DNA of 64,000 nt, from positions 9,660 through 73,659 of the forward strand of contig JAPSFT010000010.1 in assembly GCA_035063765.1 (NCBI GenBank), read 5' to 3'. A program made the translations under genes and the position numbers. A model generated the notes under the pieces. That model saw nothing but the letters and a program-made list of their open reading frames with translations, searched no databases and was not told where the DNA came from. The DNA is from Deltaproteobacteria bacterium (GTDB lineage Bacteria; Myxococcota_A; UBA9160; PR03). This document shows positions 42,599 through 54,349 of the stretch, piece after piece (positions within the stretch are counted from its first letter, which is position 1; the number at the start of each line of letters is the position of its first letter).

Positions 42599-42720
42599 CG
42601 CCTCCTGAGGGACCGGGGCCGGGGTCGACAAGGCATGGAGCGTCTCCCAGCATACTACGCAGGAGCGTCATGGGCCCCGAGGCGATGTCCGGTCCGTCCG
42701 GGATCCGAACGGAGGAGCAG

Positions 42721-45123
42721 ATGGTTCGCACCTACACCGATCCGCGGCGAGAGACACCCGAGGGCACCGCGCTCTCGGCGGACGAGCTGCGCAGGACGGA
42801 CGCGTACTGGCGCGCCTGCAACTACCTCGCCGCCGGGATGATCTACCTGCGCGACAACCCCCTGCTGCGCGAGCCCCTCCAGCGCGAGCACATCAAGCAG
42901 CGCCTGCTCGGCCACTGGGGGGCGAGCCCGGGCCTCTCCTTCGCCTACGTGCACCTGAACCGGCTGATCCGCAAGTACGACCTCGACGCGATCTTCCTGG
43001 CCGGCCCGGGGCACGGCGCGCCCGGCGTCCTCGCGCCCGTCTACCTCGAGGGGACCTACTCGGAGGTGTTCCCGAACAAGAGCGAGGACCTGGACGGGAT
43101 GCGGGCCTTCCTCGAGGAGTTCTCGTTCCCGGGCGGGATCGGCAGCCACTGCACCCCGGAGACGCCCGGCTCGATCCACGAGGGCGGCGAGCTCGGCTAC
43201 TCGGTGTCGCACGCGTTCGGGGCGGCCTTCGACAACCCCGATCTGCTCGTCGCGGTGGTGGTCGGCGACGGCGAGGCCGAGACCGGGCCGCTGGCCACCT
43301 CGTGGCACTCGACCAAGTTCCTGAACCCGATCCGCGACGGCGCGGTGCTCCCGATCCTCCACCTGAACGGCTACAAGATCAACAACCCGACCCTGCTCGC
43401 CCGCATCTCCCACGACGAGCTGGAGAGCCTGTTCCGGGGCTACGGCTGGAGCCCGCGCTTCGTCGAGGGCCACGAGCCCGAGCGCATGCACCAGGCGATG
43501 GCGGCGACCCTCGAGGAGTGCGTGCTCGAGATCCGCCGCATCCAGGAGGAGGCGCGCGCGAGCGGCAGGGCGCTGCGGGCCCGCTGGCCGATGATCGTGC
43601 TGCGCAGCCCGAAGGGGTGGACCGGCCCGAAGGAGGTGGACGGTCACAAGGTCGAGGGCTCCTGGCGCGCGCACCAGGTCCCGCTCGCAGGCGTCCGGGA
43701 GAACCCCGCGCACTTGAAGCAGCTCGAGGAGTGGCTGCGCAGCTACCGGCCCGAGGAGCTCTTCGACGCGAGCGGGCGGCTGGTCGCCGAGCTGCGCGCG
43801 CTGGCGCCGGCCGGGCGCCGGCGCATGAGCGCCAACCCGCACGCCAACGGCGGCCTGCTGCGCAAGGCGCTGCGCATGCCCGACTTCCGCGACTACGCGA
43901 TCGAGCTCGAGGCGCCCGGCCAGGTGACGGCGGAGAACACCCGCCCGCTCGGGCGCCTGCTGCGCGACGTGATGCGCTCGAACCCGGACACCTTCCGGGT
44001 CTTCGGGCCCGACGAGAACACCTCGAACAAGCTCGACGCGATCTACGAGGTGAGCAAGAAGCTCTGGCTCGCCGACTCCCTGCCCGAGGACGCCGACGGC
44101 GGCGAGCTGGCGCCCGACGGGCGCGTCCTCGAGATGCTCTCCGAGCACACCCTCGAGGGCTGGCTCGAGGGCTACCTGCTGACCGGCCGCCACGGCTTCC
44201 TCTCGACCTACGAGGCCTTCGCCCACGTCATCGACTCGATGTTCAACCAGCACGCGAAGTGGCTCGCCGCCTCGCGCGAGCAGCCGTGGCGCGCGCCGGT
44301 GTCGTCGCTGAACCTGCTGATCACCTCGACGGTCTGGCGCCAGGACCACAACGGCTTCACGCACCAGGACCCGGGCTTCCTCGACGTGGTCGTGAACAAG
44401 AGCCCCGACGTGTGCCGGATCTACCTGCCGCCCGACGTGAACACGCTGCTGTGCATCGCCGACCGCTGCCTGCGCAGCACGAACGAGATCAACGTCATCG
44501 TCGCCGACAAGCAGAAGCACCTCCAGTACATGACGATGGACGAGGCCATCGTGCACTGCGCCAAGGGCGTCAGCATCTGGCGCCAGGCGAGCAACGACGA
44601 GGGCGAGGAGCCCGACGTCGTGATGGCGTGCGCGGGCGACATCCCGACCAAGGAGGCGCTGGCGGCGGTGGTGCTGCTCCGGGAGCACTTCCCCGCGCTC
44701 AAGATCCGCTTCGTCAACGTGGTGGACCTCTACAAGCTGACGCCTTCCAGCGAGCACCCGCACGGCCTCGCGGACCGCGACTTCGACAGCCTCTTCACCG
44801 TGGACCGGCCGATCATCTTCAACTTCCACGGCTATCCCTGGCTGATCCACCGGCTCGCCTACCGGCGCACCAACCACCGGAACCTGCACGTCCGCGGCTA
44901 CAAGGAGAAGGGCAGCATCAACACGCCCCTCGACCTCGCGATCCAGAACCAGATCGACCGCTTCAGCCTCGCGATCGACGTGATCGACCGCGTGCCCGGG
45001 CTCCGGGTCGCCGGCGCGCACGCCAAGGAGGCGCTGCGCAGCATGCAGATCGAATGCCAGAGCTACGCCTACGAGTGGGGCGTCGACAAGCCCGAGCTCG
45101 ACGGGTGGCGGTGGCCCTCCTGA
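42721..45123 (+). CDS. xfp: Xylulose-5-phosphate/fructose-6-phosphate phosphoketolase
   Basis: [75 protein letters not shown]; GGAGGAG RBS. Confidence 0.97.
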
Positions 45124-45189: not shown

Positions 45190-46896
45190 ATGGAAGGCCG
45201 CCGGATCCCGCTCGATCGACTCACCTGGCAGCGCTGGCGCCGCGCGACCTGGAGGTTCGTCAGGTCGGAGGTCGGGGGGCGGGCCCGGGCCCTGTTCCTG
45301 GCGCTCCTCGCGCTGTTGGTCGCGATCAACGGCCTGAACGTGGTGAACAGCTACGTCGGCCGCGACTTCATGACCGCGATCGAGGCGCGCAGCAAGTCGG
45401 GCTTCCTGTTCGAGGCCCTGCTCTACGTCGGCGTCTTCGCGGCGTCCACGGTGGCCGCGGTGATCTACAGCTTCTGCGAGCAGCGGCTGGGCCTGCTGTG
45501 GCGCGCCTGGCTCACGCGGGGGCTGATCGAGCGCTACCTGCACGACGACACCTACTACTGGCTGCGCGAGCACGACGAGCTTCCGAATCCGGACCAGCGG
45601 ATCGCCGAGGACGTCCGGACCTTCACGGCCACCACGCTCTCGCTCCTGCTGATCCTGCTCAACGCGACCTTCACGATCGTCGCCTTCTCCGGCGTCCTGT
45701 GGTCGATCAGCCCGCTGCTCTTCGGCACGGCGGTGGCGTACGCCGCGCTCGGCTCGGGGCTCACGGTCCTGTTCGGGAGGCCCCTGATCTGGCTCAACTA
45801 CCAGCAGTCCGACCGCGAGGCGGACCTGCGCGCGAGCCTCGTCCACGTGCGCGAGAACGCCGAGTCGGTGGCGCTCCTGCACCGCGAGGGCCGGCTCGGC
45901 GCGCGCCTGGGGAAGCGGGTCGACGCGCTGGTCGCCAACACGAGGCGGATCATCGCGGTGAACCGCAACCTCGGCTTCTTCACGACGGGCTACAACTACC
46001 TGATCCAGATCATCCCGGTCCTGATCGTGGCGCCGCTCTTCATCGGGGGACACGTCGAGTTCGGGGTGATCACCCAGTCCTCGATGGCCTTCTCGACCCT
46101 GATCGGCGCCTTCTCGCTGATCGTCACGCAGTTCCAGCAGATCTCGTCGTACGCCGTCGTGCTGGCGCGCCTCGGGGTCTTCGCCGAGAGCGTCGAGGAG
46201 GTGGCCGCCGACGGCGCCCGGGGCATCGTGCACGACGACGGCGGGGACGGGATCGCCTGGCAGGAGCTCACGCTGCGCTCGCCGCACGACGGGACGGTGC
46301 TGCTCGCCGGGCTGTCGGCCTCGGTGCGCTCCGGCACCCGCGTGCTCGTCACGGGGCCGAACGAGGCCGCGCGCTTCGCCCTGTTCCGGGCGACGGCCAG
46401 GCTCTGGAACGCGGGCGAGGGGCGCATCGTGCGGCCGCCGCCGGGCACGATCCTGTTCGTGCCCGAGCGGCCCTATCTGCCGCCGGGAACCCTGCGCGAG
46501 GCGCTGGTGCAGACCGGGCAGGAGCAGGCGATCTCCGACGCGCGCATCGCCGAGGTGCTGCGGGCGCTCGGGGTCGACGGGGTGTTCGCCCGGAGCGGAG
46601 GGCTCGACGCCGAGCAGGACTGGGACGACCTGCTGTCGCTCGGCGAGCAGCAGCTCCTCGGCTTCGCGAGGATCGTGCTGGCGAAGCCGCGCTTCGCGGT
46701 CCTCGATCGCCCCGCGACCCTGCTGCCGCGCGAGCTCGTGGAGCGTACCTGCGCGCTGCTCGCGGAGTCGGCGATCACCGTCGTCACCTTCGAGCGCGAC
46801 GCGGCGCTCGCCGCGCACCACGATGCCCAGCTCGAGATCGGCGAGGGCGGCCGCTGGGTCTGGCGGCCCCTCGCCCAGGCGAGCCGCAGCGCATGA
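45190..46896 (+). CDS. BacA/YddA (ABCD-like) half-transporter with catalytically degenerate nucleotide-binding domain
   Basis: TMD motifs WRAWLT, NPDQRIAEDV, READLR, RENAESVA, GFFTTGYNY; NBD retains LSLGEQQ but has GPNEAARF (Walker A), PERPYLP (Q-loop), AVLDRP (Walker B) and VTFERD (H-loop). Confidence 0.88.
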   Translation: MEGRRIPLDRLTWQRWRRATWRFVRSEVGGRARALFLALLALLVAINGLNVVNSYVGRDFMTAIEARSKSGFLFEALLYVGVFAASTVAAVIYSFCEQRLGLLWRAWLTRGLIERYLHDDTYYWLREHDELPNPDQRIAEDVRTFTATTLSLLLILLNATFTIVAFSGVLWSISPLLFGTAVAYAALGSGLTVLFGRPLIWLNYQQSDREADLRASLVHVRENAESVALLHREGRLGARLGKRVDALVANTRRIIAVNRNLGFFTTGYNYLIQIIPVLIVAPLFIGGHVEFGVITQSSMAFSTLIGAFSLIVTQFQQISSYAVVLARLGVFAESVEEVAADGARGIVHDDGGDGIAWQELTLRSPHDGTVLLAGLSASVRSGTRVLVTGPNEAARFALFRATARLWNAGEGRIVRPPPGTILFVPERPYLPPGTLREALVQTGQEQAISDARIAEVLRALGVDGVFARSGGLDAEQDWDDLLSLGEQQLLGFARIVLAKPRFAVLDRPATLLPRELVERTCALLAESAITVVTFERDAALAAHHDAQLEIGEGGRWVWRPLAQASRSA

Positions 46897-49800
46897 GCAC
46901 GCCCGGCCCGGTCCGGATCGCGAGCCCCTCCGGGCTCGTGGCGGAGGTCCACGCGAACGGCTCGCTCCGGCGCATCGACCACCGCGACGTGATCGTGAAC
47001 CTGTTCCCCGGCAACGCGCTCGAGGGCGGGCCCGCGAACCTGTTCCTGCGCCGCCGGGACGAGGCCGGTGCCTGGACGCCGCTCCTCGGGCCCCGCAGCC
47101 CCGGCCGGGTCCGGCTCGACGAGCGCGGGCTCGAGGTCACGGGCGAGTGGTCGGGCCTGCGCTTCCGGGTGGCGCTCGTGCTCGCCGGGTCGGCGCCGGC
47201 CTGGTTCTGGCACGTGGCGCTCGAGAACGCGGGAGCCACGGTGGCGACGATCGACCTCGTGCACGTGCAGGATCTGGCGCTCGCGGACTACGGGGCCGTG
47301 CGGCTCAACGAGTACTACGTGAGCCAGTACGTCGACTACACGCCGCTCGACCACCCCGGGCACGGCGTGGTCCTGGCGGTGCGGCAGAACCTCGCGATCG
47401 GGGGGCGCCACCCCTGGCTCGTGACCGGCTCGCTGGCCCGGGCGGCGAGCTTCTGCACGGACGCGATCCAGCTCCACGGTCTCTCGACCCGCGCAGGGGA
47501 CGCGCCGGCAGCTCTCGCCGGCGCCGGCCTTCCGGGCGTGCGCCACCAGCACGAGCACTCGCTCGCGGGGATCCAGGACGAGCCGCTGCGCCTCGCCCCC
47601 GGCGCGCGCGCGACGCTCGGCTTCTTCGCCTGGCTCGAGCCGGACCACCCGGACGCGAGCTCGGCCGGCGATCTCGCGTTCGCCGACCGCGCGCTGGCGC
47701 TCCCGGAGGCCGCGCCCCCCGGCGAGCGCACGGCACCCTCCGCCGCGCCACCCGCCGTCACCCTCTTCAGCGAGCAGCCCGTGCTCGCGGTGCACGACCT
47801 CGAGCCTGCCGCGCTCGCCGCCCGTTGCGGGAGCGAGCGCCGTGCGGTCGAGGAGGACGGCGGCCGCCTGCTGTCGTTCTTCACGGGCGGCGGCGCGCAC
47901 GTCGTCCTGCCGGCCAAGGAGCGCGCGAGCCTGCGCCCGCACGGGCAGATCCTGCGCACCGGCGAGCGGCTCGAGCCCGACGAGGCCTCGCTCACGACCA
48001 CGGTCTGGATGGGCGGCGTCTTCCACTCCATGGTGACGCAGGGCCACGTCAGCATCGGACGCCTGCTCTCGACGACCCACTCGTACCTCGGCCTGTTCCG
48101 CTCGCACGGACAACGGATCTTCGTCGACGCGGGCGAGGGCTGGCGGCTGCTCGGGGTGCCGTCGGCCTTCGCGATGACCCCGAGCAGCGCCACCTGGTGG
48201 TACCAGCACGCGGCGGGCCTGCTCGAGGTCCGGAGCTGGGCGCCGACCGACCGCCACGAGCTGTGGCTGGCCGCACGCGTCCTGGCGGGATCCCCCTGCC
48301 GCTTCCTGGTCTCCCACCACCTCGCGGTGAACGGCGACGACGGCGCCGACGCCGTCGCCGCGCGCTGGACGCGCGACGCGCAGGGCGTGGCGATCGCCCT
48401 GCTGCCGGACACGGACCTCGGCCGCCGTTTCCCTGGTGGTGGCTTCCGCATCGACCCGACACCGGACACGCCGATCGATCGCATCGGCGGCGACGAGCTG
48501 CTCTTCGCCGACGGCCGCTCGCGTGGACAGCCCTTCCTCACGCTGGTGACGGCGCCGGCCGCGTCCCTGGCCCTGCGCATCACCGGGCAGCTCGTGATGC
48601 CGGTGCCGCCCGGAGCGGTCGAGGAGCGCCACGCGGCCGACGCGGCGCAGGCCGGGCGCTTCTGGCGCGACCTGACGGGCGGGCTCACGCTCGAGGCGCC
48701 GGCGCCCGCCGAGAGCGAGCGGCTCGAAGCCGTCCTGCCCTGGCTCGCGCACGACGCGTGGATCCACCACCTGGCTCCCCGTGGCCTCGAGCAGTACTCG
48801 GGCGGGGGCTGGGGCACGCGCGACGTGTGCCAGGGGCCCGTCGAGCTGCTGCTCGGGCTCGGGCGCGTGGAGCCGGTGCGCGCGCTGCTCCGCACCGTCT
48901 TCCGCAACCAGGACCCGGACGGCGACTGGCCGCAGTGGTTCATGTTCTTCGAGCGCGAGCGCTCGATCCGCCCCGGGGACTCGCACGGCGACATCGTCTT
49001 CTGGCCGCTCCTGGCGCTCGCCAGGTACCTGCTGGCCTCGGAGGACGCGGCGCTGCTCGACGAGGAGCTGCCCTTCTTCCACCCGGAGGGGGAGGCCCGC
49101 GCCGAGCGCGCGACCCTGCTCGGCCACGTCGAGCGCGCGCTCGCGCTGATCGAGCGGCGCGTGATCCCGGGCACGCGGCTCGCGGCCTACGGTCACGGCG
49201 ACTGGAACGACTCGCTCCAGCCGGCCGATCCCGCGCTCGCCGAGCAGCTCTGCAGCGCCTGGACGGTGACGCTCCACCACCAGACCCTCGCCACCCTCGC
49301 CGAGGCGCTGCGCAGCGTGGACCGGAGTGCGCTCGCCGCCCCGCTCGAGGCCTCCCTCGGCCCGATCCGCGACGACTTCCAGCGGCTCCTGGTCGCGGAC
49401 GGGGTCGTCGCCGGCTTCGCGCGCTTCCGCCCCGACGGGGCCGTCGAGCACTGGATCCACCCGCGCGACCGGGAGGGCGACGTCCACTACAGCCTGCTCC
49501 CGATGGTCCACGCGATCCTGGCCGGGCTCTTCACCCCCGAGCAGGCAGCCCGACACGGAGCGGTGATCCGCCGCCACCTGCTCGCCGCCGACGGCGCGCG
49601 GCTCTTCGACCGGCCGTTCCCGTACCGGGGCGGCACCCAGCGCCGCTTCCAGCGCGCCGAGACCAGCACCTTCTTCGGCCGCGAGATCGGCATCATGTAC
49701 ACGCATGCGCACCTGCGCTACGCGGAGGCGATGGCGCACCTGGGCGACGCCGAGGCCTTCCACCTCGCGCTGCGTCAGGCCCTGTCCGCCGGCCTGCGCG

Positions 49801-50276
49801 AGGTCGTGCCGAGCGCGCGGCTGCGCCAGGCCAACTGCTACACGTCGAGCTCGGACGCGGACTTCCCCGATCGCTACGCCGCCTCGGCGGGCTACGACGC
49901 GGTCCGGACCGGCGCCGTGGCCGTCGAAGGGGGCTGGCGGGTGTACTCGAGCGGCGCCGGGATCGCGGTGAGCCTGCTCCGCCAGCGCCTCCTCGGCCTG
50001 CGCCTGCGGCGCTCCGGGGTGGTCTTCGATCCCGTACTCGCGCGGGCGCTCGACGGGCTGTGCGCGGGCGTCGAGCTCTTCGGGCAGTCCGTGCGCGTGC
50101 GCTATCAGGTGGGCGCGCGCGGCTACGGGCCGGTGCGGCTCACCTGGAACGGATCTCCACTTCGCTTCGCACGGGAAGCCAATCCCTACCGCGAGGGCGG
50201 CGCCGTCGTCGCCGCCGAGGAGCTGCGCGAGCGCCTGCGGAGCGGAGCCGGCGAGCTCACGATCGAGCTCGGATGA
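46893..50276 (+). CDS. GH94 glycoside phosphorylase, 1,2-beta-oligoglucan phosphorylase-like
   Basis: GLEQYSGGGWGTRDVCQGP, SHGDIVFWPL, YGHGDWNDSLQP (GH94 catalytic motif), EIGIMYTHAHLRY, QANCYTSSSD, GWRVYSSG; about 1127 aa; no signal peptide; ATGA overlap with the transporter. Confidence 0.85.
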   Translation: MSTPGPVRIASPSGLVAEVHANGSLRRIDHRDVIVNLFPGNALEGGPANLFLRRRDEAGAWTPLLGPRSPGRVRLDERGLEVTGEWSGLRFRVALVLAGSAPAWFWHVALENAGATVATIDLVHVQDLALADYGAVRLNEYYVSQYVDYTPLDHPGHGVVLAVRQNLAIGGRHPWLVTGSLARAASFCTDAIQLHGLSTRAGDAPAALAGAGLPGVRHQHEHSLAGIQDEPLRLAPGARATLGFFAWLEPDHPDASSAGDLAFADRALALPEAAPPGERTAPSAAPPAVTLFSEQPVLAVHDLEPAALAARCGSERRAVEEDGGRLLSFFTGGGAHVVLPAKERASLRPHGQILRTGERLEPDEASLTTTVWMGGVFHSMVTQGHVSIGRLLSTTHSYLGLFRSHGQRIFVDAGEGWRLLGVPSAFAMTPSSATWWYQHAAGLLEVRSWAPTDRHELWLAARVLAGSPCRFLVSHHLAVNGDDGADAVAARWTRDAQGVAIALLPDTDLGRRFPGGGFRIDPTPDTPIDRIGGDELLFADGRSRGQPFLTLVTAPAASLALRITGQLVMPVPPGAVEERHAADAAQAGRFWRDLTGGLTLEAPAPAESERLEAVLPWLAHDAWIHHLAPRGLEQYSGGGWGTRDVCQGPVELLLGLGRVEPVRALLRTVFRNQDPDGDWPQWFMFFERERSIRPGDSHGDIVFWPLLALARYLLASEDAALLDEELPFFHPEGEARAERATLLGHVERALALIERRVIPGTRLAAYGHGDWNDSLQPADPALAEQLCSAWTVTLHHQTLATLAEALRSVDRSALAAPLEASLGPIRDDFQRLLVADGVVAGFARFRPDGAVEHWIHPRDREGDVHYSLLPMVHAILAGLFTPEQAARHGAVIRRHLLAADGARLFDRPFPYRGGTQRRFQRAETSTFFGREIGIMYTHAHLRYAEAMAHLGDAEAFHLALRQALSAGLREVVPSARLRQANCYTSSSDADFPDRYAASAGYDAVRTGAVAVEGGWRVYSSGAGIAVSLLRQRLLGLRLRRSGVVFDPVLARALDGLCAGVELFGQSVRVRYQVGARGYGPVRLTWNGSPLRFAREANPYREGGAVVAAEELRERLRSGAGELTIELG

Positions 50277-53200
50277 CGGACGCGCTCCTCGACGACTTCC
50301 GCGACGTCTCCGCGTGGAGCGCCGTGGCCTCGGGCGAGGCGCAGCTCGCGATCACGAGCGGCGCGGGCCCGGACGGCGGCGCGGCGATGCGCCTCGACTA
50401 CGACTTCCGCGGCGGCGGCGGCTTCGTCGTGGCACGCAGGAGCCTTCCGCTCGCGCTGCCGAGCGCGTGGGCGCTCGCCCTGCGCGTGCGCGGCGCCGCG
50501 CCGGCCAACAAGCTCGAGATCAAGCTCGCCGATCCCAGCAACCGCAACGTCTGGTGGTGGCACCGGGACGCCTTCGAGCTCCCCGCCGAGTGGACGCCGC
50601 TGCGCATCCGCAGCAGCGAGGTCGCGTTTGCCTGGGGACCTGCGGGCGGGGGGGTGCTGCGCGAGCTCGGCGCGCTCGAGATCGCGATCGCCGCCGGGCC
50701 GGGCGGCCGCGGATCGCTCTGGATCGCCGACCTGCGCTTCGAGGACCGCTCGCTCGCCGGGCCGCCGCGCGCGACGGCTTCGAGTGCCGCACCCGGCCGC
50801 GATCCGGAGTGCGCGCTCGCCGCCGGGGGAAGCGGCTGGCGCAGCGCGCCCGGCGCCGGCGGCACGCAGTGGCTCGCGCTCGACTTCGGCCGCGAGCACG
50901 AGTACGGCGGGCTCGTGGTGGACTGGGCCGAGGAGGGTGCCCCGCGTGCCTTCGAGGTGCAGGCGTCCGGCGACGGCGCCTCCTGGGCGACGCTCTGGTC
51001 GGCGCGCCAGGCGGAGGGCGAGCGCAGCTACGTGTACCTGCCGGGCGGCTCCTCGCGCCATCTGCGGCTCCACCTGCTCGAGCCCGCCGCGGGCGCCGGC
51101 GGCTTCGCGATCCGCTCCCTCGAGGTGCAGCCCTTCGAGTTCTCCCGCTCGCTCGCCGAGTTCTTCCATGCCGTCGCGGCCCGCGAGCCGCGCGGCCGGC
51201 ATCCGCGCTGGCTGCACCGCGAGCAGTCGTACTGGACGCCGGCCGGGGTCGCCGGCGGGACGACGGCGGCGATCCTGAACGAGGAGGGCCTGCTCGAGCC
51301 CGACCGCGGCAGCTTCACGCTCGAGCCCTTCCTGTTCGCCGGGGGCACGCTCGGCACCTGGGCGGACGCGGCGATCGACCTCACCCTGGCGCGGGGCTGG
51401 CTGCCGATCCCGTCGGTGACCTGGCGCTGGCGCGGCTGGTCGCTCGAGACGACGGCCTTCGCGGTGGCGGAAGCCTCCGGCGCCGCGGCGCGCGTGCGCT
51501 ACCGGCTCGTGAACGAGGCGGCGGACACGCCGCGGGTGCGGCTCTTCGTGGCGCTGCGACCGTTCCAGGTCTCGCCGCCCTGGCAGTCGTTCCAGGGGAT
51601 CGGCGGGACGGCGCCGATCCGCACGCTCGCGTGGCGCGACGGGGCCGTCGAGGTGGACGGCATCGCGCGCGTGTGGCCGCTCGGGACACCCACGGGCTTC
51701 GGCGCCGCGGCCTTCGAGCAGGGCGGCGTCCTGCGCGCGCTCGCGCGCGGCGAGCTGCCCGCGCGCGCGGAGGTCGCCGACCCCTTCGCGCACGCCTCCG
51801 GCGCGCTGCTCTTCGAGCTCGAGCTCGCGCCGGGCGCGGCGGGCGAGATCGAGCTCGCGGTGCCCTTCGTCGAGCGCGAGCCGCTCGGGCCGGTGGCGCT
51901 CGGGTCGGAGCCCGCCGGCACGCTGCGGGAGGTCACGGAGGCCTGGGGCGAGGCCCTCGGGCGCGTCCGGATCGCGCTGGCCGCCGACGCGGGCTGCGTG
52001 GACGCGCTGCGCACCGCCGCCGGCCACGTGCTGGCGGTGCGCGACGGCCCGGCGCTCCAGCCCGGCCCGCGCCGCTACACCCGCTCGTGGATCCGCGACG
52101 GCGCCACCATGTCGGCTGCGCTGCTGCGGATCGGCTGCGCCGGCCCGGTGCGCGACTTCCTCGCGTGGTACGCGCCGCACCAGGCCGCGGACGGCAACGT
52201 CCCCTGCGCGGTGGACCGCAGCGGTCCCGACTGGCTGCCCGAGCACGACAGCCACGGCCAGCTCGTGTTCACGCTCGTCGAGTACGCCCGCTTCACCGGC
52301 GATCTCGCGTTCGCGCGCCGCCTGTGGCCTGCGGCGCAGCGGGCGGTCGCCTACCTCGAGGGGCTGCGGGCGCAGCGCTGCACGCCGGAGTACCGGGCGC
52401 CCGAGCAGCGGGCCCGCTTCGGGATCCTGCCGGAGTCCGCGAGCCACGAGGGCTATCTCGCGCAGCCGGTCCACTCCTACTGGGACGACTTCTGGGCCCT
52501 GCGCGGGATCGGTGACGCGGCCGACCTCGCGCGCGCGCTCGGCGAGGAGGCGGAAGCCCTCCGGCTCGCAGCGCTGCGCGATGCGCTGCACGCGTCGCTC
52601 TACGCCTCGATCGAGGCGACGATCGAGGAGCGCGGCCTCGCCTACGTCCCCGGCTCGGTCGAATGGGCCGACTTCGACCCGGCCGCCACGGCCACCGCGC
52701 TCACGACCACCGACGCCGCCGAGCGCCTGCCGCCGGGCGTGCTGGCCGCCACCTACGACGAGTACCTGGCCGGCCTGCGCCGCCGGCGCCGCGGCGAGAT
52801 CGAGTGGAACAACTACAGCGCCTACGAGATCCGCATCCTGGGGGCGCTCGTCCGGCTCGGCCGGCGCGCCGACGCGCACGAGCTGCTCGCCTTCTTCCTC
52901 GGCGACCGCCGCCCCCGCGCCTGGAACCAGTGGCCCGAGATCTCCTGGCGCGACCCGAGAAGCCCCGGCCACCTGGGCGACGTCCCCCATGCCTGGATCG
53001 GCGCCGAGTACGTGCTGGCCCTGCTCGCGATGTTCGCCTACGAGCGCCCCGCGGACGGCGCGCTGGTCGTCGCCGCCGGCGTCTCGGACGCCTGGCTCGA
53101 CGCCGGCGAGGTGGCGGTTGCGGGCCTGCCCACCTGGTGGGGATCCCTGTCCTACACGCTGCGGCGGAGCGGGCCGGGCGCCCTGCGCCTCGAGCTCGGC

Positions 53201-53356
53201 CCCGGCCTGCGCCCACCGCCGGGCGGCATCGTGGTGCGGCCGCCGCTCGCGCGCCCGCTCGCGCGCGTCACCGTGGACGGCGCGCCGGTCCCGGACGTTG
53301 GCGGAGACACGCTCACCCTGCGGCGCACGCCGGCGATCGTCTCGATGGAGTCGTGA
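50273..53356 (+). CDS. Uncharacterised glycoside hydrolase: CBM11/CIA30-like + discoidin (F5/8C) + beta-sandwich + (alpha/alpha)6 barrel
   Basis: LDDF..MRLDYDF N-terminal module; ATASS..WRS..QWLALDFG..FEVQASGDG discoidin; LQPGPRRYTRSWIRDG, EHDSHGQ, SYWDDFWALRG, WNQWPE, GDVPHAW; ATGA overlap with the GH94 gene; no signal peptide. Confidence 0.8.
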   Translation: MTDALLDDFRDVSAWSAVASGEAQLAITSGAGPDGGAAMRLDYDFRGGGGFVVARRSLPLALPSAWALALRVRGAAPANKLEIKLADPSNRNVWWWHRDAFELPAEWTPLRIRSSEVAFAWGPAGGGVLRELGALEIAIAAGPGGRGSLWIADLRFEDRSLAGPPRATASSAAPGRDPECALAAGGSGWRSAPGAGGTQWLALDFGREHEYGGLVVDWAEEGAPRAFEVQASGDGASWATLWSARQAEGERSYVYLPGGSSRHLRLHLLEPAAGAGGFAIRSLEVQPFEFSRSLAEFFHAVAAREPRGRHPRWLHREQSYWTPAGVAGGTTAAILNEEGLLEPDRGSFTLEPFLFAGGTLGTWADAAIDLTLARGWLPIPSVTWRWRGWSLETTAFAVAEASGAAARVRYRLVNEAADTPRVRLFVALRPFQVSPPWQSFQGIGGTAPIRTLAWRDGAVEVDGIARVWPLGTPTGFGAAAFEQGGVLRALARGELPARAEVADPFAHASGALLFELELAPGAAGEIELAVPFVEREPLGPVALGSEPAGTLREVTEAWGEALGRVRIALAADAGCVDALRTAAGHVLAVRDGPALQPGPRRYTRSWIRDGATMSAALLRIGCAGPVRDFLAWYAPHQAADGNVPCAVDRSGPDWLPEHDSHGQLVFTLVEYARFTGDLAFARRLWPAAQRAVAYLEGLRAQRCTPEYRAPEQRARFGILPESASHEGYLAQPVHSYWDDFWALRGIGDAADLARALGEEAEALRLAALRDALHASLYASIEATIEERGLAYVPGSVEWADFDPAATATALTTTDAAERLPPGVLAATYDEYLAGLRRRRRGEIEWNNYSAYEIRILGALVRLGRRADAHELLAFFLGDRRPRAWNQWPEISWRDPRSPGHLGDVPHAWIGAEYVLALLAMFAYERPADGALVVAAGVSDAWLDAGEVAVAGLPTWWGSLSYTLRRSGPGALRLELGPGLRPPPGGIVVRPPLARPLARVTVDGAPVPDVGGDTLTLRRTPAIVSMES

Positions 53357-53359
53357 GCG

Positions 53360-54349
53360 CTACGCCTGCTCGCCACGCGCCTCGGGAAGCTGGTCGCGGA
53401 TGCGCTCCCAGGCGATCGCCGGGAGCACCTCGTCGACCACCTCGAGCGCGCTCTGCACCGCGCGGCTCGCCTGCTCGACCGAGCGCACCCCACCCGCCAT
53501 CGCCTCCTGGAGCGTCCGGGTCTCCTTGCCGACCGCGGCCTCGACCTGGGCCAGCAGCCAGTCGCTGTCGCGCCGCAGGAGCGCGACGAAGTCGCGCACG
53601 AGCCGGCCCCGGATGCCGGCCGCCACGCCCTCGAGCACGCACGCCTCCCACAAGGGCGAGCCGCGCTCGGGATAGTCGCCGCCCCACCCCTTCACGACGC
53701 CCTGGAGGCTTTCGGCCGTGCGCGCGAACCCCTCGCCGAGGAACGCCCTGCGCACGTCGGCCAGGCGCCGCCGGCGCGCGCTCTCGATCTCGTCGGGCGT
53801 GGCCGACGCCGGGGGGCGGCTCGGGTCGGGCCAGGTCCGTCCCTTCTCCCCGAGCAGCGCCACCACGCGCGCCACCGCGAGCTCACCGGCCTCCGCTCGC
53901 AGCCGCTCCGCGATCGCATGGCGAGCGCGCGGCACGAGCTCGTGCGAGCCCTTGCCGGCCGCCCCCATCACCTCGAGCTCCCCGAGCAGCGTCTGGATCG
54001 CGTCGAGGTCGCTCCCGGAGAGCCCCGTGCCGAGCTCCCCGTGCATCCGCTCGATGTCCTCGCGCATCGCGCGATGCGCGGCCTCGACGCGCTGCGCCCG
54101 CTCCGCGGCGAGCTCCTCGGCGCTCCGCTTGCGCGCGGTGGGGGACGCCAGGCTCGTGGCGCCCCCCGCCCGGCGCTGCTCCTCGATGCGCTCGTTCAGG
54201 CCCCGGATCGCGGCCTCGAAGTCGGCTTCGACCCGGGCAAAGCCGCTCTGCGGCCCGGGGGCGGCTGCCGGCTCGGGTTTCGCTCGGAACAGCCGGCCGA
54301 GGGAGTCGAGGAAGCCGAGACCTCCTCCCTGTGCTTCCGGGGTGGGCAT
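53360..54349 (-). CDS. Hypothetical all-helical/coiled-coil cytoplasmic protein
   Basis: AAGGAG RBS, TAGCGT -10 upstream, natural amino-acid composition; no family recognised. Confidence 0.75.
   Translation of the reverse strand: MPTPEAQGGGLGFLDSLGRLFRAKPEPAAAPGPQSGFARVEADFEAAIRGLNERIEEQRRAGGATSLASPTARKRSAEELAAERAQRVEAAHRAMREDIERMHGELGTGLSGSDLDAIQTLLGELEVMGAAGKGSHELVPRARHAIAERLRAEAGELAVARVVALLGEKGRTWPDPSRPPASATPDEIESARRRRLADVRRAFLGEGFARTAESLQGVVKGWGGDYPERGSPLWEACVLEGVAAGIRGRLVRDFVALLRRDSDWLLAQVEAAVGKETRTLQEAMAGGVRSVEQASRAVQSALEVVDEVLPAIAWERIRDQLPEARGEQA

What the first reader, a model, noticed from the sequence alone, without database searches (positions are those of the whole stretch)
50273..53356. 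Unclassified CBM-like/discoidin/(alpha/alpha)6 glycosidase: possible ring-opening or debranching enzyme for cyclic glucans
The 1027-aa protein has two carbohydrate-binding-type modules and a barrel with RSWIRDG, EHDSHGQ, SYWDD and WNQWPE segments reminiscent of inverting (alpha/alpha)6 enzymes such as GH15/GH63/amylo-alpha-1,6-glucosidases. It lacks a signal peptide and is coupled to the phosphorylase. The phosphorylase needs linear non-reducing ends, so a plausible role is to linearise or debranch cyclic beta-1,2-glucans, for example cleaving the single alpha-1,6 bond of Xanthomonas/Ralstonia-type rings or removing glucosyl branches. The specific activity is hypothesis.
Basis: partly seen in the sequence, partly recalled or inferred. 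Interest (0 to 1): 0.7.

Follow-up and report, generated by a model that had tools for sequence, protein, structure and literature searches.

The report
Unclassified glycosidase of beta-1,2-glucan breakdown loci
This gene encodes a large cytoplasmic sugar-cleaving enzyme from a widespread, uncharacterised family that is only distantly related to glucoamylases (GH15) and GH94 phosphorylases. The family almost always sits in gene clusters for breaking down bacterial beta-1,2-glucans, so it is probably an unstudied step of that pathway.

Summary
The ORF at 50273-53356 is real. It encodes 1027 aa, has no signal peptide, and its start overlaps the stop of an upstream SOGP-type GH94 phosphorylase (ATGA).

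The AlphaFold model is confident (pLDDT 94.9). It shows a CBM-like sandwich, a discoidin/CBM32 domain, a beta-supersandwich, an (alpha/alpha)6 barrel and a C-terminal sandwich.

No Pfam, NCBIfam or PDB sequence model covers the barrel. Profile-profile comparison links it remotely to GH15 (95.9%, E 6e-9) and to GH94 (92.5%). It shows no link to GH144 (0.3%). The GH15 Y..W.RD motif and the GH15 base position (E889) are invariant. The acid is probably E726, or else D738.

The family is large (1059 clusters at 50% identity with E<1e-30). In 33 of 44 well-flanked loci it lies next to GH94 or GH144.

It splits into two clades with 100/100 support. The cytoplasmic clade, which includes this gene, pairs with an SbmA/BacA-type transporter and never with GH144. 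The exported clade pairs with CUT1 ABC importers, GH144 and GH1. This genome carries one copy of each clade.

Best reading: an inverting hydrolase that opens or unblocks cyclic or branched beta-1,2-glucans so the phosphorylase can act. Which bond it cuts (beta-1,2 or alpha-1,6) is unresolved. I rate it a candidate new GH family.

The parts
50273..53356 (+). GHX: 1027-aa cytoplasmic multidomain glycosidase of an unclassified family (the finding)
   Evidence: Open frame, identical gene call on public contigs, AF2 pLDDT 94.9.
50273..50752 (+). N-terminal beta-sandwich, residues 1-160 (CBM-like)
   Evidence: All-beta in the model. Weak CBM11/CIA30 hints at E 0.013-0.03. Near-invariant W15, F45, W94 and the A120-P123 (AWGP) motif.
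50771..51091 (+). F5/8 type C (discoidin, CBM32-like) domain, residues 167-273
   Evidence: PF00754 at E 1.1e-9, above threshold. The family profile matches CBM32 structures 4zz5 and 2rva at E 5e-15.
51230..51877 (+). Beta-supersandwich domain, residues about 320-535, as in bacterial GH15, GH65 and GH94
   Evidence: Model secondary structure. Full-length Foldseek hits to GH94, GH15 and GH116 cover the sandwich plus the barrel.
51920..53032 (+). (alpha/alpha)6 catalytic barrel, residues about 550-920. Invariant residues: Y602, W606, R608, D609, E657, D659, S724-H725-E726-G-Y728, H734, W737-D738, D800, D802, Y851, R854, W887, E889, G902-D903, P905-H906, W908
53033..53353 (+). C-terminal beta-sandwich, residues about 921-1027
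   Evidence: Model. No Pfam match.
46893..50276 (+). SOGP-type GH94 1,2-beta-oligoglucan phosphorylase (1127 aa), translationally coupled upstream
   Evidence: Pfam SOGP_N, SOGP_2nd and SOGP_4th. PDB 5H3Z at E 1.8e-174 over the full length. ATGA overlaps at both ends.
45190..46896 (+). SbmA/BacA/ABCD-type membrane transporter (568 aa) with a degenerate nucleotide-binding domain; first gene of the operon
   Evidence: PF06472 at 2e-42, SbmA_BacA at 6e-11, ABC_tran only 26 bits. Walker A reads GPNEAARF and Walker B reads LDRP, both conserved in the subfamily.
42670..45123 (+). XFP phosphoketolase (817 aa) upstream, a recurrent neighbour in the closest orthologous loci
   Evidence: Gene call and Pfam. 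XFP also lies next to the cluster in L008, L010 and L061.

Best explanation
GHX is a cytoplasmic inverting glycoside hydrolase of a large, uncharacterised family. The family is a remote sister of GH15 and GH94 within the six-hairpin glycosidases, and it is dedicated to the breakdown of bacterial periplasmic beta-1,2-glucans (cyclic glucans and OPGs). Proposed pathway for this operon: (1) the SbmA/BacA-type carrier, whose ATPase domain is degenerate and which is therefore probably proton-driven like SbmA, imports a bulky cyclic or branched beta-1,2-glucan whole; (2) GHX binds it through its CBM-like modules and makes the first cut, using E726 (or D738) as general acid and E889 as general base, and so produces a linear chain with a free non-reducing end; (3) SOGP phosphorolyses that chain to glucose 1-phosphate plus sophorose; (4) a GH1 beta-glucosidase encoded elsewhere in the genome finishes the job. 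In the exported sister clade, which includes this genome's second copy, the same step occurs in the periplasm before CUT1 ABC uptake. Shown: the fold, the remote homology, the conserved residues, the operon structure, the family-wide gene neighbourhoods, and the two localisation clades. Inferred: hydrolase rather than phosphorylase, the inverting mechanism, the order of steps, and the substrate. Which bond is cleaved is open. My split is endo-beta-1,2 ring opening about 35%, the alpha-1,6 bond of alpha-1,6-cyclised glucans about 25%, and exo, beta-1,6 debranching or other about 40%.
For: Fold: AF2 pLDDT 94.9, pTM 0.92. Barrel-only Foldseek top hits are six-hairpin enzymes of families known (from background knowledge) to be mostly inverting: the 4xhc rhamnosidase, GH15 isomaltose glucohydrolase, MmpH, GH100, dextran dextrinase and GH63. 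Remote homology: hhalign to genuine GH15 domains gives 95.9%, E 6e-9 and to GH94 gives 92.5%, E 4.7e-7. Thirteen columns are invariant and identical in both GHX and GH15, including Y-x3-W-x-R-D and the GH15 base Glu, which aligns with E889. E726 aligns with the WED acid of dextran dextrinase and is invariant, whereas E721 varies. Context: among 44 loci with at least 4 kb on both flanks, GH94 is present in 26, GH144 in 17, either in 33, GH1 in 12, CUT1 ABC in 17 and the SbmA-type transporter in 15. All 22 loci with the SbmA-type transporter have GHX without a signal peptide and none has GH144. Of 28 CUT1/TBDR loci, 26 have GHX with a signal peptide. The two clades separate with 100/100 support. 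This genome has both systems: the window operon, and SBP-permeases-GHX2 (with signal peptide)-GH94 on C9. The genome also has opgG/D-opgH, and relatives carry open frames of about 2,900 aa matching both GH94 and PF10091, read here as cyclic glucan synthases, so substrate is at hand. All GHX copies found in the phylum sample with a strong match lie beside GH94 or GH144.
Against: There is no biochemical evidence, and gene context cannot name the bond. GH15 and GH94 are exo-acting, and the shared R-D motif binds the terminal sugar in GH15, so an exo activity is possible and that would not open rings. In clade II, GH144 is often present as well, so a plain endo-beta-1,2 role would be partly redundant. 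Only 8 of the 22 SbmA-transporter loci have GH94 within 10 kb. CUT1 binding proteins can bind whole cyclic glucans (PMC13731917), which weakens the argument that bulky cargo needs an SbmA-type carrier. The acid residue is ambiguous: hhalign shifts that loop by 5 residues.
Confidence: 0.55

Rival explanations
1. GHX specifically hydrolyses the single alpha-1,6 bond of alpha-1,6-cyclised beta-1,2-glucans (Xanthomonas/Ralstonia-type OPGs), or of the alpha-1,6-containing oligosaccharide that GH144 and beta-glucosidase leave behind. This is a GH15-like alpha-glucoside mechanism and is the first reader's leading idea.
For: The best profile match is to GH15. The GH15 Y/W/R/D motif and base Glu are invariant. 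By background knowledge, characterised GH15 enzymes act on alpha-glucosidic bonds, including alpha-1,6 (the isomaltose glucohydrolase 5z3a and glucodextranase 1ug9 hits). CpSGL plus BtBGL leave a non-degradable glucopentaose from these glucans (bioRxiv 10.1101/2025.04.21.649730), so an enzyme is missing. Co-occurrence with GH144 in clade II points to a complementary activity rather than a redundant one.
Against: GH94, which is beta-specific, is almost as close and shares the R-D motif, so homology does not fix the anomer. Some GHX-positive relatives carry the long open frames read here as cyclic beta-1,2-glucan synthases, whose products have no alpha bond. The minimal GHX plus GH94 loci would be restricted to one class of OPG.
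Confidence: 0.25
2. GHX is an exo-acting hydrolase, the water-using counterpart of SOGP: a beta-1,2-glucan or sophorose glucohydrolase, or a beta-1,6 debranching glucosidase. On this view it trims chains rather than opening rings.
For: Both remote relatives, GH15 and GH94, are exo-acting and use the conserved R-D pair. The window operon has no beta-glucosidase of its own, and SOGP leaves sophorose (PMC5309861 abstract).
Against: GH1 co-occurs with GHX in 12 of the 44 well-flanked loci (15 of all 80), so the two are not simple substitutes. Two CBM-like modules and 1027 aa are unusual for a disaccharidase. Clade I loci would then have no enzyme able to open cyclic substrates.
Confidence: 0.12
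3. The operon is biosynthetic. SOGP would build beta-1,2 chains from Glc1P, GHX would act as a transglycosylase or cyclase (as dextran dextrinase does within GH15, or GH189 within cyclic glucan synthase), and the transporter would export the product.
For: Phosphorylases are reversible. Dextran dextrinase, a GH15 transglucosylase, is among the best structural matches. The trio loosely mirrors the modules of cyclic glucan synthase.
Against: The sister clade sits in plainly catabolic loci with LacI, TonB receptor, SBP/permeases, GH144 and GH1. The genome already has opgG/D-opgH for synthesis. SbmA/BacA-type carriers are known as importers. The phosphoketolase neighbour fits catabolism.
Confidence: 0.05

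Closest known systems
GH15 (bacterial glucoamylase and glucodextranase, Kribbella isomaltose glucohydrolase 5Z3A, dextran dextrinase 9JU0)
   Same: A beta-sandwich N-domain followed by an (alpha/alpha)6 barrel. hhalign 95.9%, E 6e-9. Shared invariant Y-x3-W-x-R-D, [EQ]-x-D-x-x-G, the base Glu (E889) and G-[DN]-x-P motifs, all in the same order.
   Different: Not detected by PF00723. About 15% identity. A 26-residue GH15 segment is missing and the acid loop is rebuilt as S-H-E-G-Y. Two extra N-terminal CBM-like modules. The genomic context is beta-1,2-glucan, not alpha-glucan.
GH94 phosphorylases (SOGP 5H3Z, cellobiose phosphorylase 8HO7)
   Same: Best full-length structural matches, TM 0.45/0.55. 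hhalign 92.5% over 310 columns. Same sandwich-barrel-sandwich layout. Encoded side by side with GHX.
   Different: No GDWND catalytic motif. An invariant Glu sits where GH15 has its base, a position GH94 (by background knowledge) fills with phosphate. No PF17167 or PF06165 match.
GH144 and the SGL clan of endo-beta-1,2-glucanases (GH144, 162, 189, 192-194; PMC12102758)
   Same: An (alpha/alpha)6 fold, presumably inverting, and membership of the same beta-1,2-glucan loci. This is the functional role GHX may fill in loci that lack GH144.
   Different: No detectable relationship: hhalign 0.3%, no PF10091 match, and no SGL-clan structure among the top 50 barrel matches.
MmpH methylmannose polysaccharide hydrolase (7QSJ)
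   Same: Best sequence-profile hit in the PDB (E 0.002) and a top barrel match (TM 0.60/0.67). As recalled from the literature, not checked here, it is an endo-acting enzyme on this barrel type.
   Different: A single-domain protein of about 350 aa that acts on an alpha-mannan, from an unrelated genomic context.

Membership tests
GH15 (Pfam PF00723) | Match to the family HMM at or above the gathering threshold | tested here: not met
   No PF00723 hit even at E<=1. A six-frame PF00723 search of the own genome finds two true GH15 genes but neither GHX copy. Only a sub-threshold TIGR01577 match: 27 bits against a cut-off of 820.
GH15 (Pfam PF00723) | Conserved region 1, Y-x-x-x-W-x-R-D, and a general base Glu | tested here: met
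   Y602, W606, R608, D609 and E889 are invariant and align with invariant GH15 columns. The base region aligns only at a relaxed alignment threshold.
GH15 (Pfam PF00723) | General acid Glu in the W-E-[ED] motif | tested here: inconclusive
   hmmsearch aligns E726 (SHEGY) with the WED of dextran dextrinase. hhalign puts the GH15 acid at P720, five residues away. D738 (YWDD) is a second invariant candidate.
GH15 (Pfam PF00723) | Inverting hydrolysis of alpha-glucosidic bonds | not testable with these tools
   Needs enzyme assays and product anomer analysis.
GH94 | Match to PF17167/PF06165 and the GDWND catalytic Asp motif | tested here: not met
   No Pfam hit. Remote hhalign only, 92.5%. There is no GDWND motif in the aligned loop.
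SGL clan (GH144/162/189/192-194) | Detectable sequence or profile relationship to GH144 | tested here: not met
   hhalign 0.3%, the same as the GH1 negative control. No PF10091 hit. Absent from the top 50 Foldseek hits.
GH133 / GDE amylo-alpha-1,6-glucosidase | Match to GDE_C (PF06202) | tested here: not met
   No GDE_C hit. Only a weak GDE_N hint (E 0.057) on the supersandwich domain.
CBM32 / F5-8 type C | Match to PF00754 above the gathering threshold | tested here: met
   E 1.1e-9, 38.9 bits against 28.2. The family profile matches CBM32 structures at E 5e-15.
Beta-1,2-glucan utilisation locus component | Conserved adjacency to enzymes specific for beta-1,2-glucan (SOGP/GH94, GH144) | tested here: met
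   33 of 44 well-flanked loci. Both copies in the own genome. All strong copies in the phylum sample.

The most novel reading that the evidence does not exclude
GHX founds a new glycoside hydrolase family whose members open cyclic periplasmic glucans. In its most novel form, it cleaves the single alpha-1,6 bond of alpha-1,6-cyclised beta-1,2-glucans, for which the papers searched here name no degrading enzyme. The cytoplasmic clade would work with an ATPase-dead SbmA/BacA-type carrier that imports whole cyclic glucans. That would make it the first carbohydrate cargo and the first catabolic role known for this transporter class.
Probability: 0.22. Interest if true: 0.8.

Novelty: new variant of a known kind. 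Interest (0 to 1): 0.62.

Why it matters
Beta-1,2-glucans (cyclic glucans and OPGs) are symbiosis, virulence and osmoprotection factors of many Gram-negative bacteria, and their degradation enzymes have only been found since 2014. Here is a very large protein family, spread over many phyla, that is as regular a member of these loci as GH144 or GH94. None of the beta-1,2-glucan papers I searched mentions it, and no Pfam, NCBIfam or PDB entry covers its catalytic domain. Characterising it would probably create a new GH family bridging GH15 and GH94. It could supply the missing ring-opening or alpha-1,6-cleaving activity. It would also give a first substrate lead for the ATPase-dead BacA-like transporters encoded beside it.

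Tried and rejected
1. Direct family assignment failed. Pfam, NCBIfam and PDB sequence searches with the protein, the full-length profile and the barrel profile found only the discoidin domain, or sub-threshold GH15-type hits.

2. The idea that GHX is a divergent SGL-clan (GH144-like) glucanase is rejected. hhalign gives 0.3%, equal to the GH1 negative control.

3. A simple GC3-based gene caller was too noisy in this 74% GC genome. I replaced it with public gene calls and tblastn-based neighbour detection. One neighbour cluster, 'c9', turned out to be the antisense frame of GH1.

4. Phylum-wide co-occurrence statistics were abandoned. Only 6 of 301 sampled genomes have a strong GHX match (2 more match weakly at E~1e-25), so the distribution is patchy and accessory.

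5. Literature searches for a characterised homologue, or for an enzyme that degrades alpha-1,6-cyclised glucan, found nothing.

6. A biosynthetic reading of the operon was considered and ranked low, because the genome has opgGH and the sister clade sits in catabolic loci.

7. I could not inspect the geometry of the active site because model coordinates are not exposed by the tools.

Full report
OBSERVATION

The ATG at 50273 overlaps the stop of the upstream gene (ggATGAcgg). That upstream gene starts with an ATG overlapping the stop of the gene before it. Gene calls on identical public contigs give the same three co-directional genes. They are a 568-aa SbmA/BacA/ABC-membrane protein, a 1127-aa SOGP-type GH94, and this 1027-aa protein. 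An XFP phosphoketolase precedes them, and a convergent 329-aa gene with no Pfam match follows.

The upstream enzyme matches the solved 1,2-beta-oligoglucan phosphorylase 5H3Z over its whole length at E 1.8e-174. The protein has no hydrophobic leader. The genome is 4.4 Mb with 74% GC.

ANATOMY

Pfam recognises only the F5/8 type C domain at 167-273. NCBIfam gives one far-sub-threshold GH15-type match. PDB sequence searches find only CBM32 modules.

An AlphaFold2 model built on a 94-sequence alignment is very confident (pLDDT 94.9, pTM 0.92). It shows five domains:
- a beta-sandwich at 1-160
- the discoidin domain at about 165-290
- a beta-supersandwich at about 320-535
- an (alpha/alpha)6 barrel at about 550-920
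- a C-terminal beta-sandwich

The full-length Foldseek search returns sandwich-plus-barrel enzymes. These are GH94 cellobiose phosphorylase, exo-beta-D-arabinanase ExoMA2, dextran dextrinase, GH15 glucodextranase, GH116, GH78 and GH95. TM-scores are 0.4-0.55 and identity is 9-16%.

The barrel modelled alone (pLDDT 92.7) best matches the following:
- a Klebsiella rhamnosidase (4xhc)
- GH15 isomaltose glucohydrolase
- MmpH
- GH100 invertases
- dextran dextrinase
- GH63 enzymes

None of the beta-1,2-glucanase families (GH144, 162, 189, 192-194) appears in the top 50.

REMOTE HOMOLOGY AND CATALYTIC RESIDUES

A 68-sequence profile of the barrel (A2) finds only weak GH15-type hits in the PDB. These are MmpH at 0.002, dextran dextrinase at 0.05, isomaltose glucohydrolase at 0.07 and glucodextranase at 0.5.

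I collected genuine GH15 domains from this genome and its relatives using PF00723. That search does not pick up GHX itself. I aligned these domains as A3. Profile-profile comparisons of A2 gave these results:

| Compared with | Probability | E-value |
|---|---|---|
| GH15 (A3) | 95.9% | 6e-9 |
| GH94 catalytic domains | 92.5% | 4.7e-7 |
| GH144 | 0.3% | 0.22 |
| GH1 (negative control) | 0.3% | 0.23 |

At a relaxed alignment threshold the GH15 comparison extends to 308 columns.

Thirteen columns are invariant in both families and identical. They are Y602, W606, R608, D609, G651, E657, D659, G662, G717, D802, E889, G902 and P905. E889 falls on the invariant GH15 Glu that established knowledge assigns as the general base.

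The acid loop is remodelled. hmmsearch aligns the invariant E726 (S-H-E-G-Y) with the W-E-D of dextran dextrinase, whereas hhalign offsets this loop by five residues. E721 is variable, while E726 and D738 are invariant.

I conclude that GHX is a hydrolase rather than a phosphorylase, because the base carboxylate is present. It probably inverts. It belongs to a separate family roughly equidistant from GH15 (alpha-specific) and GH94 (beta-specific). The R-D motif is shared with GH94 as well, so homology does not tell us the anomer of the substrate.

FAMILY SIZE AND CONTEXT

The family is large. It has 3708 clusters at 50% identity with E<1e-3 and 1059 with E<1e-30. It has more than 2100 hits in the word-indexed search, and every hit that carries a name is called 'discoidin domain-containing', 'F5/8 type C domain', 'hypothetical' or, once, 'TPR repeat'.

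I fetched eighty loci from named genomes. They span Myxococcota, Rokubacteria, Methylomirabilota, Verrucomicrobiota, Gemmatimonadota, Acidobacteriota, Chromatiaceae, Competibacteraceae, Binatia, Ignavibacteria, Planctomycetota, a Bdellovibrio MAG and others.

I clustered the neighbouring ORFs and identified them with Pfam, then recounted with tblastn. Among the 44 loci with at least 4 kb on both flanks:

| Neighbour | Loci (of 44) |
|---|---|
| GH94 | 26 |
| GH144 (PF10091) | 17 |
| GH94 or GH144 | 33 (75%) |
| GH1 | 12 |
| CUT1 ABC components | 17 |
| SbmA/ABCD-type transporter | 15 |

Typical layouts are LacI-TonB receptor-GH144-SBP-permeases-GHX-GH94-GH1 (L086) and GH94-GH144-GH144-GHX-SBP-permeases (L076).

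TWO CLADES, TWO COMPARTMENTS

A signal-peptide heuristic gives a clean split. All 22 loci with the SbmA-type transporter have GHX without a leader, and none of these has GH144. Of the 28 loci with CUT1 or TonB components, 26 have GHX with a leader.

A maximum-likelihood tree of the barrel separates two clades at 100/100 support:
- Clade I has 30 members, none with a detected leader (3 are N-terminally truncated and unscored), and includes the window gene.
- Clade II has 39 members, 33 of them with leaders.

The window's own genome carries one of each. The clade II copy (44% identity, C9:204415-207642) has a leader. It sits between an SBP with permeases and a classic 1126-aa-type GH94.

So GHX is always found in the compartment where the intact glucan first arrives. 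That is the periplasm when uptake is by CUT1, and the cytoplasm when the partner is an SbmA/BacA-type carrier. In clade I loci GHX is the only enzyme that could create the non-reducing ends SOGP needs.

SUBSTRATE SUPPLY

The genome has an opgG/D (GH186) plus opgH operon, a GH144-like gene and a GH1. Several relatives carry open frames of about 2,900 aa that match both GH94 and PF10091. I read these as cyclic beta-1,2-glucan synthases.

Within the phylum GHX is patchy. Six of 301 genomes have a strong match, and it is absent from two same-genus genomes. Every strong copy lies beside GH94 or GH144.

MECHANISM AND RIVALS

The best-supported reading is a first-step 'unblocking' hydrolase for cyclic or branched beta-1,2-glucans. 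It would be followed by SOGP phosphorolysis to Glc1P and sophorose, and then by GH1.

The bond cleaved is unresolved. Endo-beta-1,2 cleavage is the most general solution for the minimal GHX plus GH94 loci, and it fits relatives that make pure cyclic beta-1,2-glucan.

Three things favour the alpha-1,6 reading:
- the slightly closer GH15 relationship
- co-occurrence with GH144 in clade II
- the report that GH144 plus beta-glucosidase leave a non-degradable glucopentaose from alpha-1,6-cyclised glucans (bioRxiv 10.1101/2025.04.21.649730)

An exo-hydrolase role and a biosynthetic or transglycosylase role are less likely but not excluded.

COMPARISON WITH WHAT IS KNOWN, AND NOVELTY

The published repertoire of beta-1,2-glucan enzymes covers SOGP/GH94, GH144, GH162, GH186, GH189, GH192-194, GH3 and GH1 beta-glucosidases, a GH35 transferase, and SBPs (PMC11842490, PMC12102758, PMC12369401, PMC13731917). 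It contains nothing like this protein. No paper in the searchable library links a discoidin-domain protein to beta-1,2-glucan.

GHX fails the membership tests for GH15, GH94, the SGL clan and GH133. It works on a GH15/GH94-like scaffold. I rate it a new variant of a known kind, that is, a candidate new GH family within the six-hairpin glycosidases with a new pathway role. CAZy assignment itself could not be checked with these tools.

Noticed in passing
window 45190-46896 (+): The SbmA/BacA/ABCD-type transporter has a degenerate nucleotide-binding domain. Walker A reads GPNEAARF and Walker B reads LDRP with no catalytic Glu, while the LSLGEQQ signature is kept. The same degeneration is conserved in the subfamily that is at least 48% identical and sits next to cytoplasmic GHX. 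A more distant subfamily (about 30% identical; L025, L028, L029, L037, L049) keeps a canonical GxxGxGK[ST].
   Followed up: partly
window 42670-45123 (+); L008 12230-14596; L010 5265-7655; L061 1-1053: An XFP phosphoketolase is a recurrent neighbour of the cluster in the closest orthologous loci. This hints that the Glc1P produced is fed into a phosphoketolase route.
   Followed up: no
own genome C9:201449-211502 (L007): A second, exported system: SBP, permeases, GHX paralogue with a signal peptide (44% identical), then a classic two-supersandwich GH94 (about C9:207693-211502). A MalK-type ATPase lies nearby on the opposite strand.
   Followed up: partly
own genome C3:37936-42200 (L101 3937-8201, minus strand): An opgG/D (GH186, MdoG at E 4e-189) followed by an opgH-like GT2 gene of about 850-890 aa. 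The organism probably makes its own osmoregulated periplasmic glucans.
   Followed up: partly
relatives G002:C10, G003:C18, G004:C117, G010:C142, G237:C36: Open frames of about 2,900-3,100 aa that match both PF10091 and GH94. They are probably cyclic beta-1,2-glucan synthases. The window's own genome has no such gene.
   Followed up: no
window 53360-54349 (-): A 329-aa gene with no Pfam match converges on GHX, with only 3 nt between the two stop codons. It is not found next to GHX in the 80 related loci.
   Followed up: no
G103:C7:17017-18129 and G252:C39:27342-28160: Two much more distant homologues of the barrel (E about 1e-25) lie in shorter open frames of 747-873 aa. They may be a further subfamily without the N-terminal modules.
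   Followed up: no
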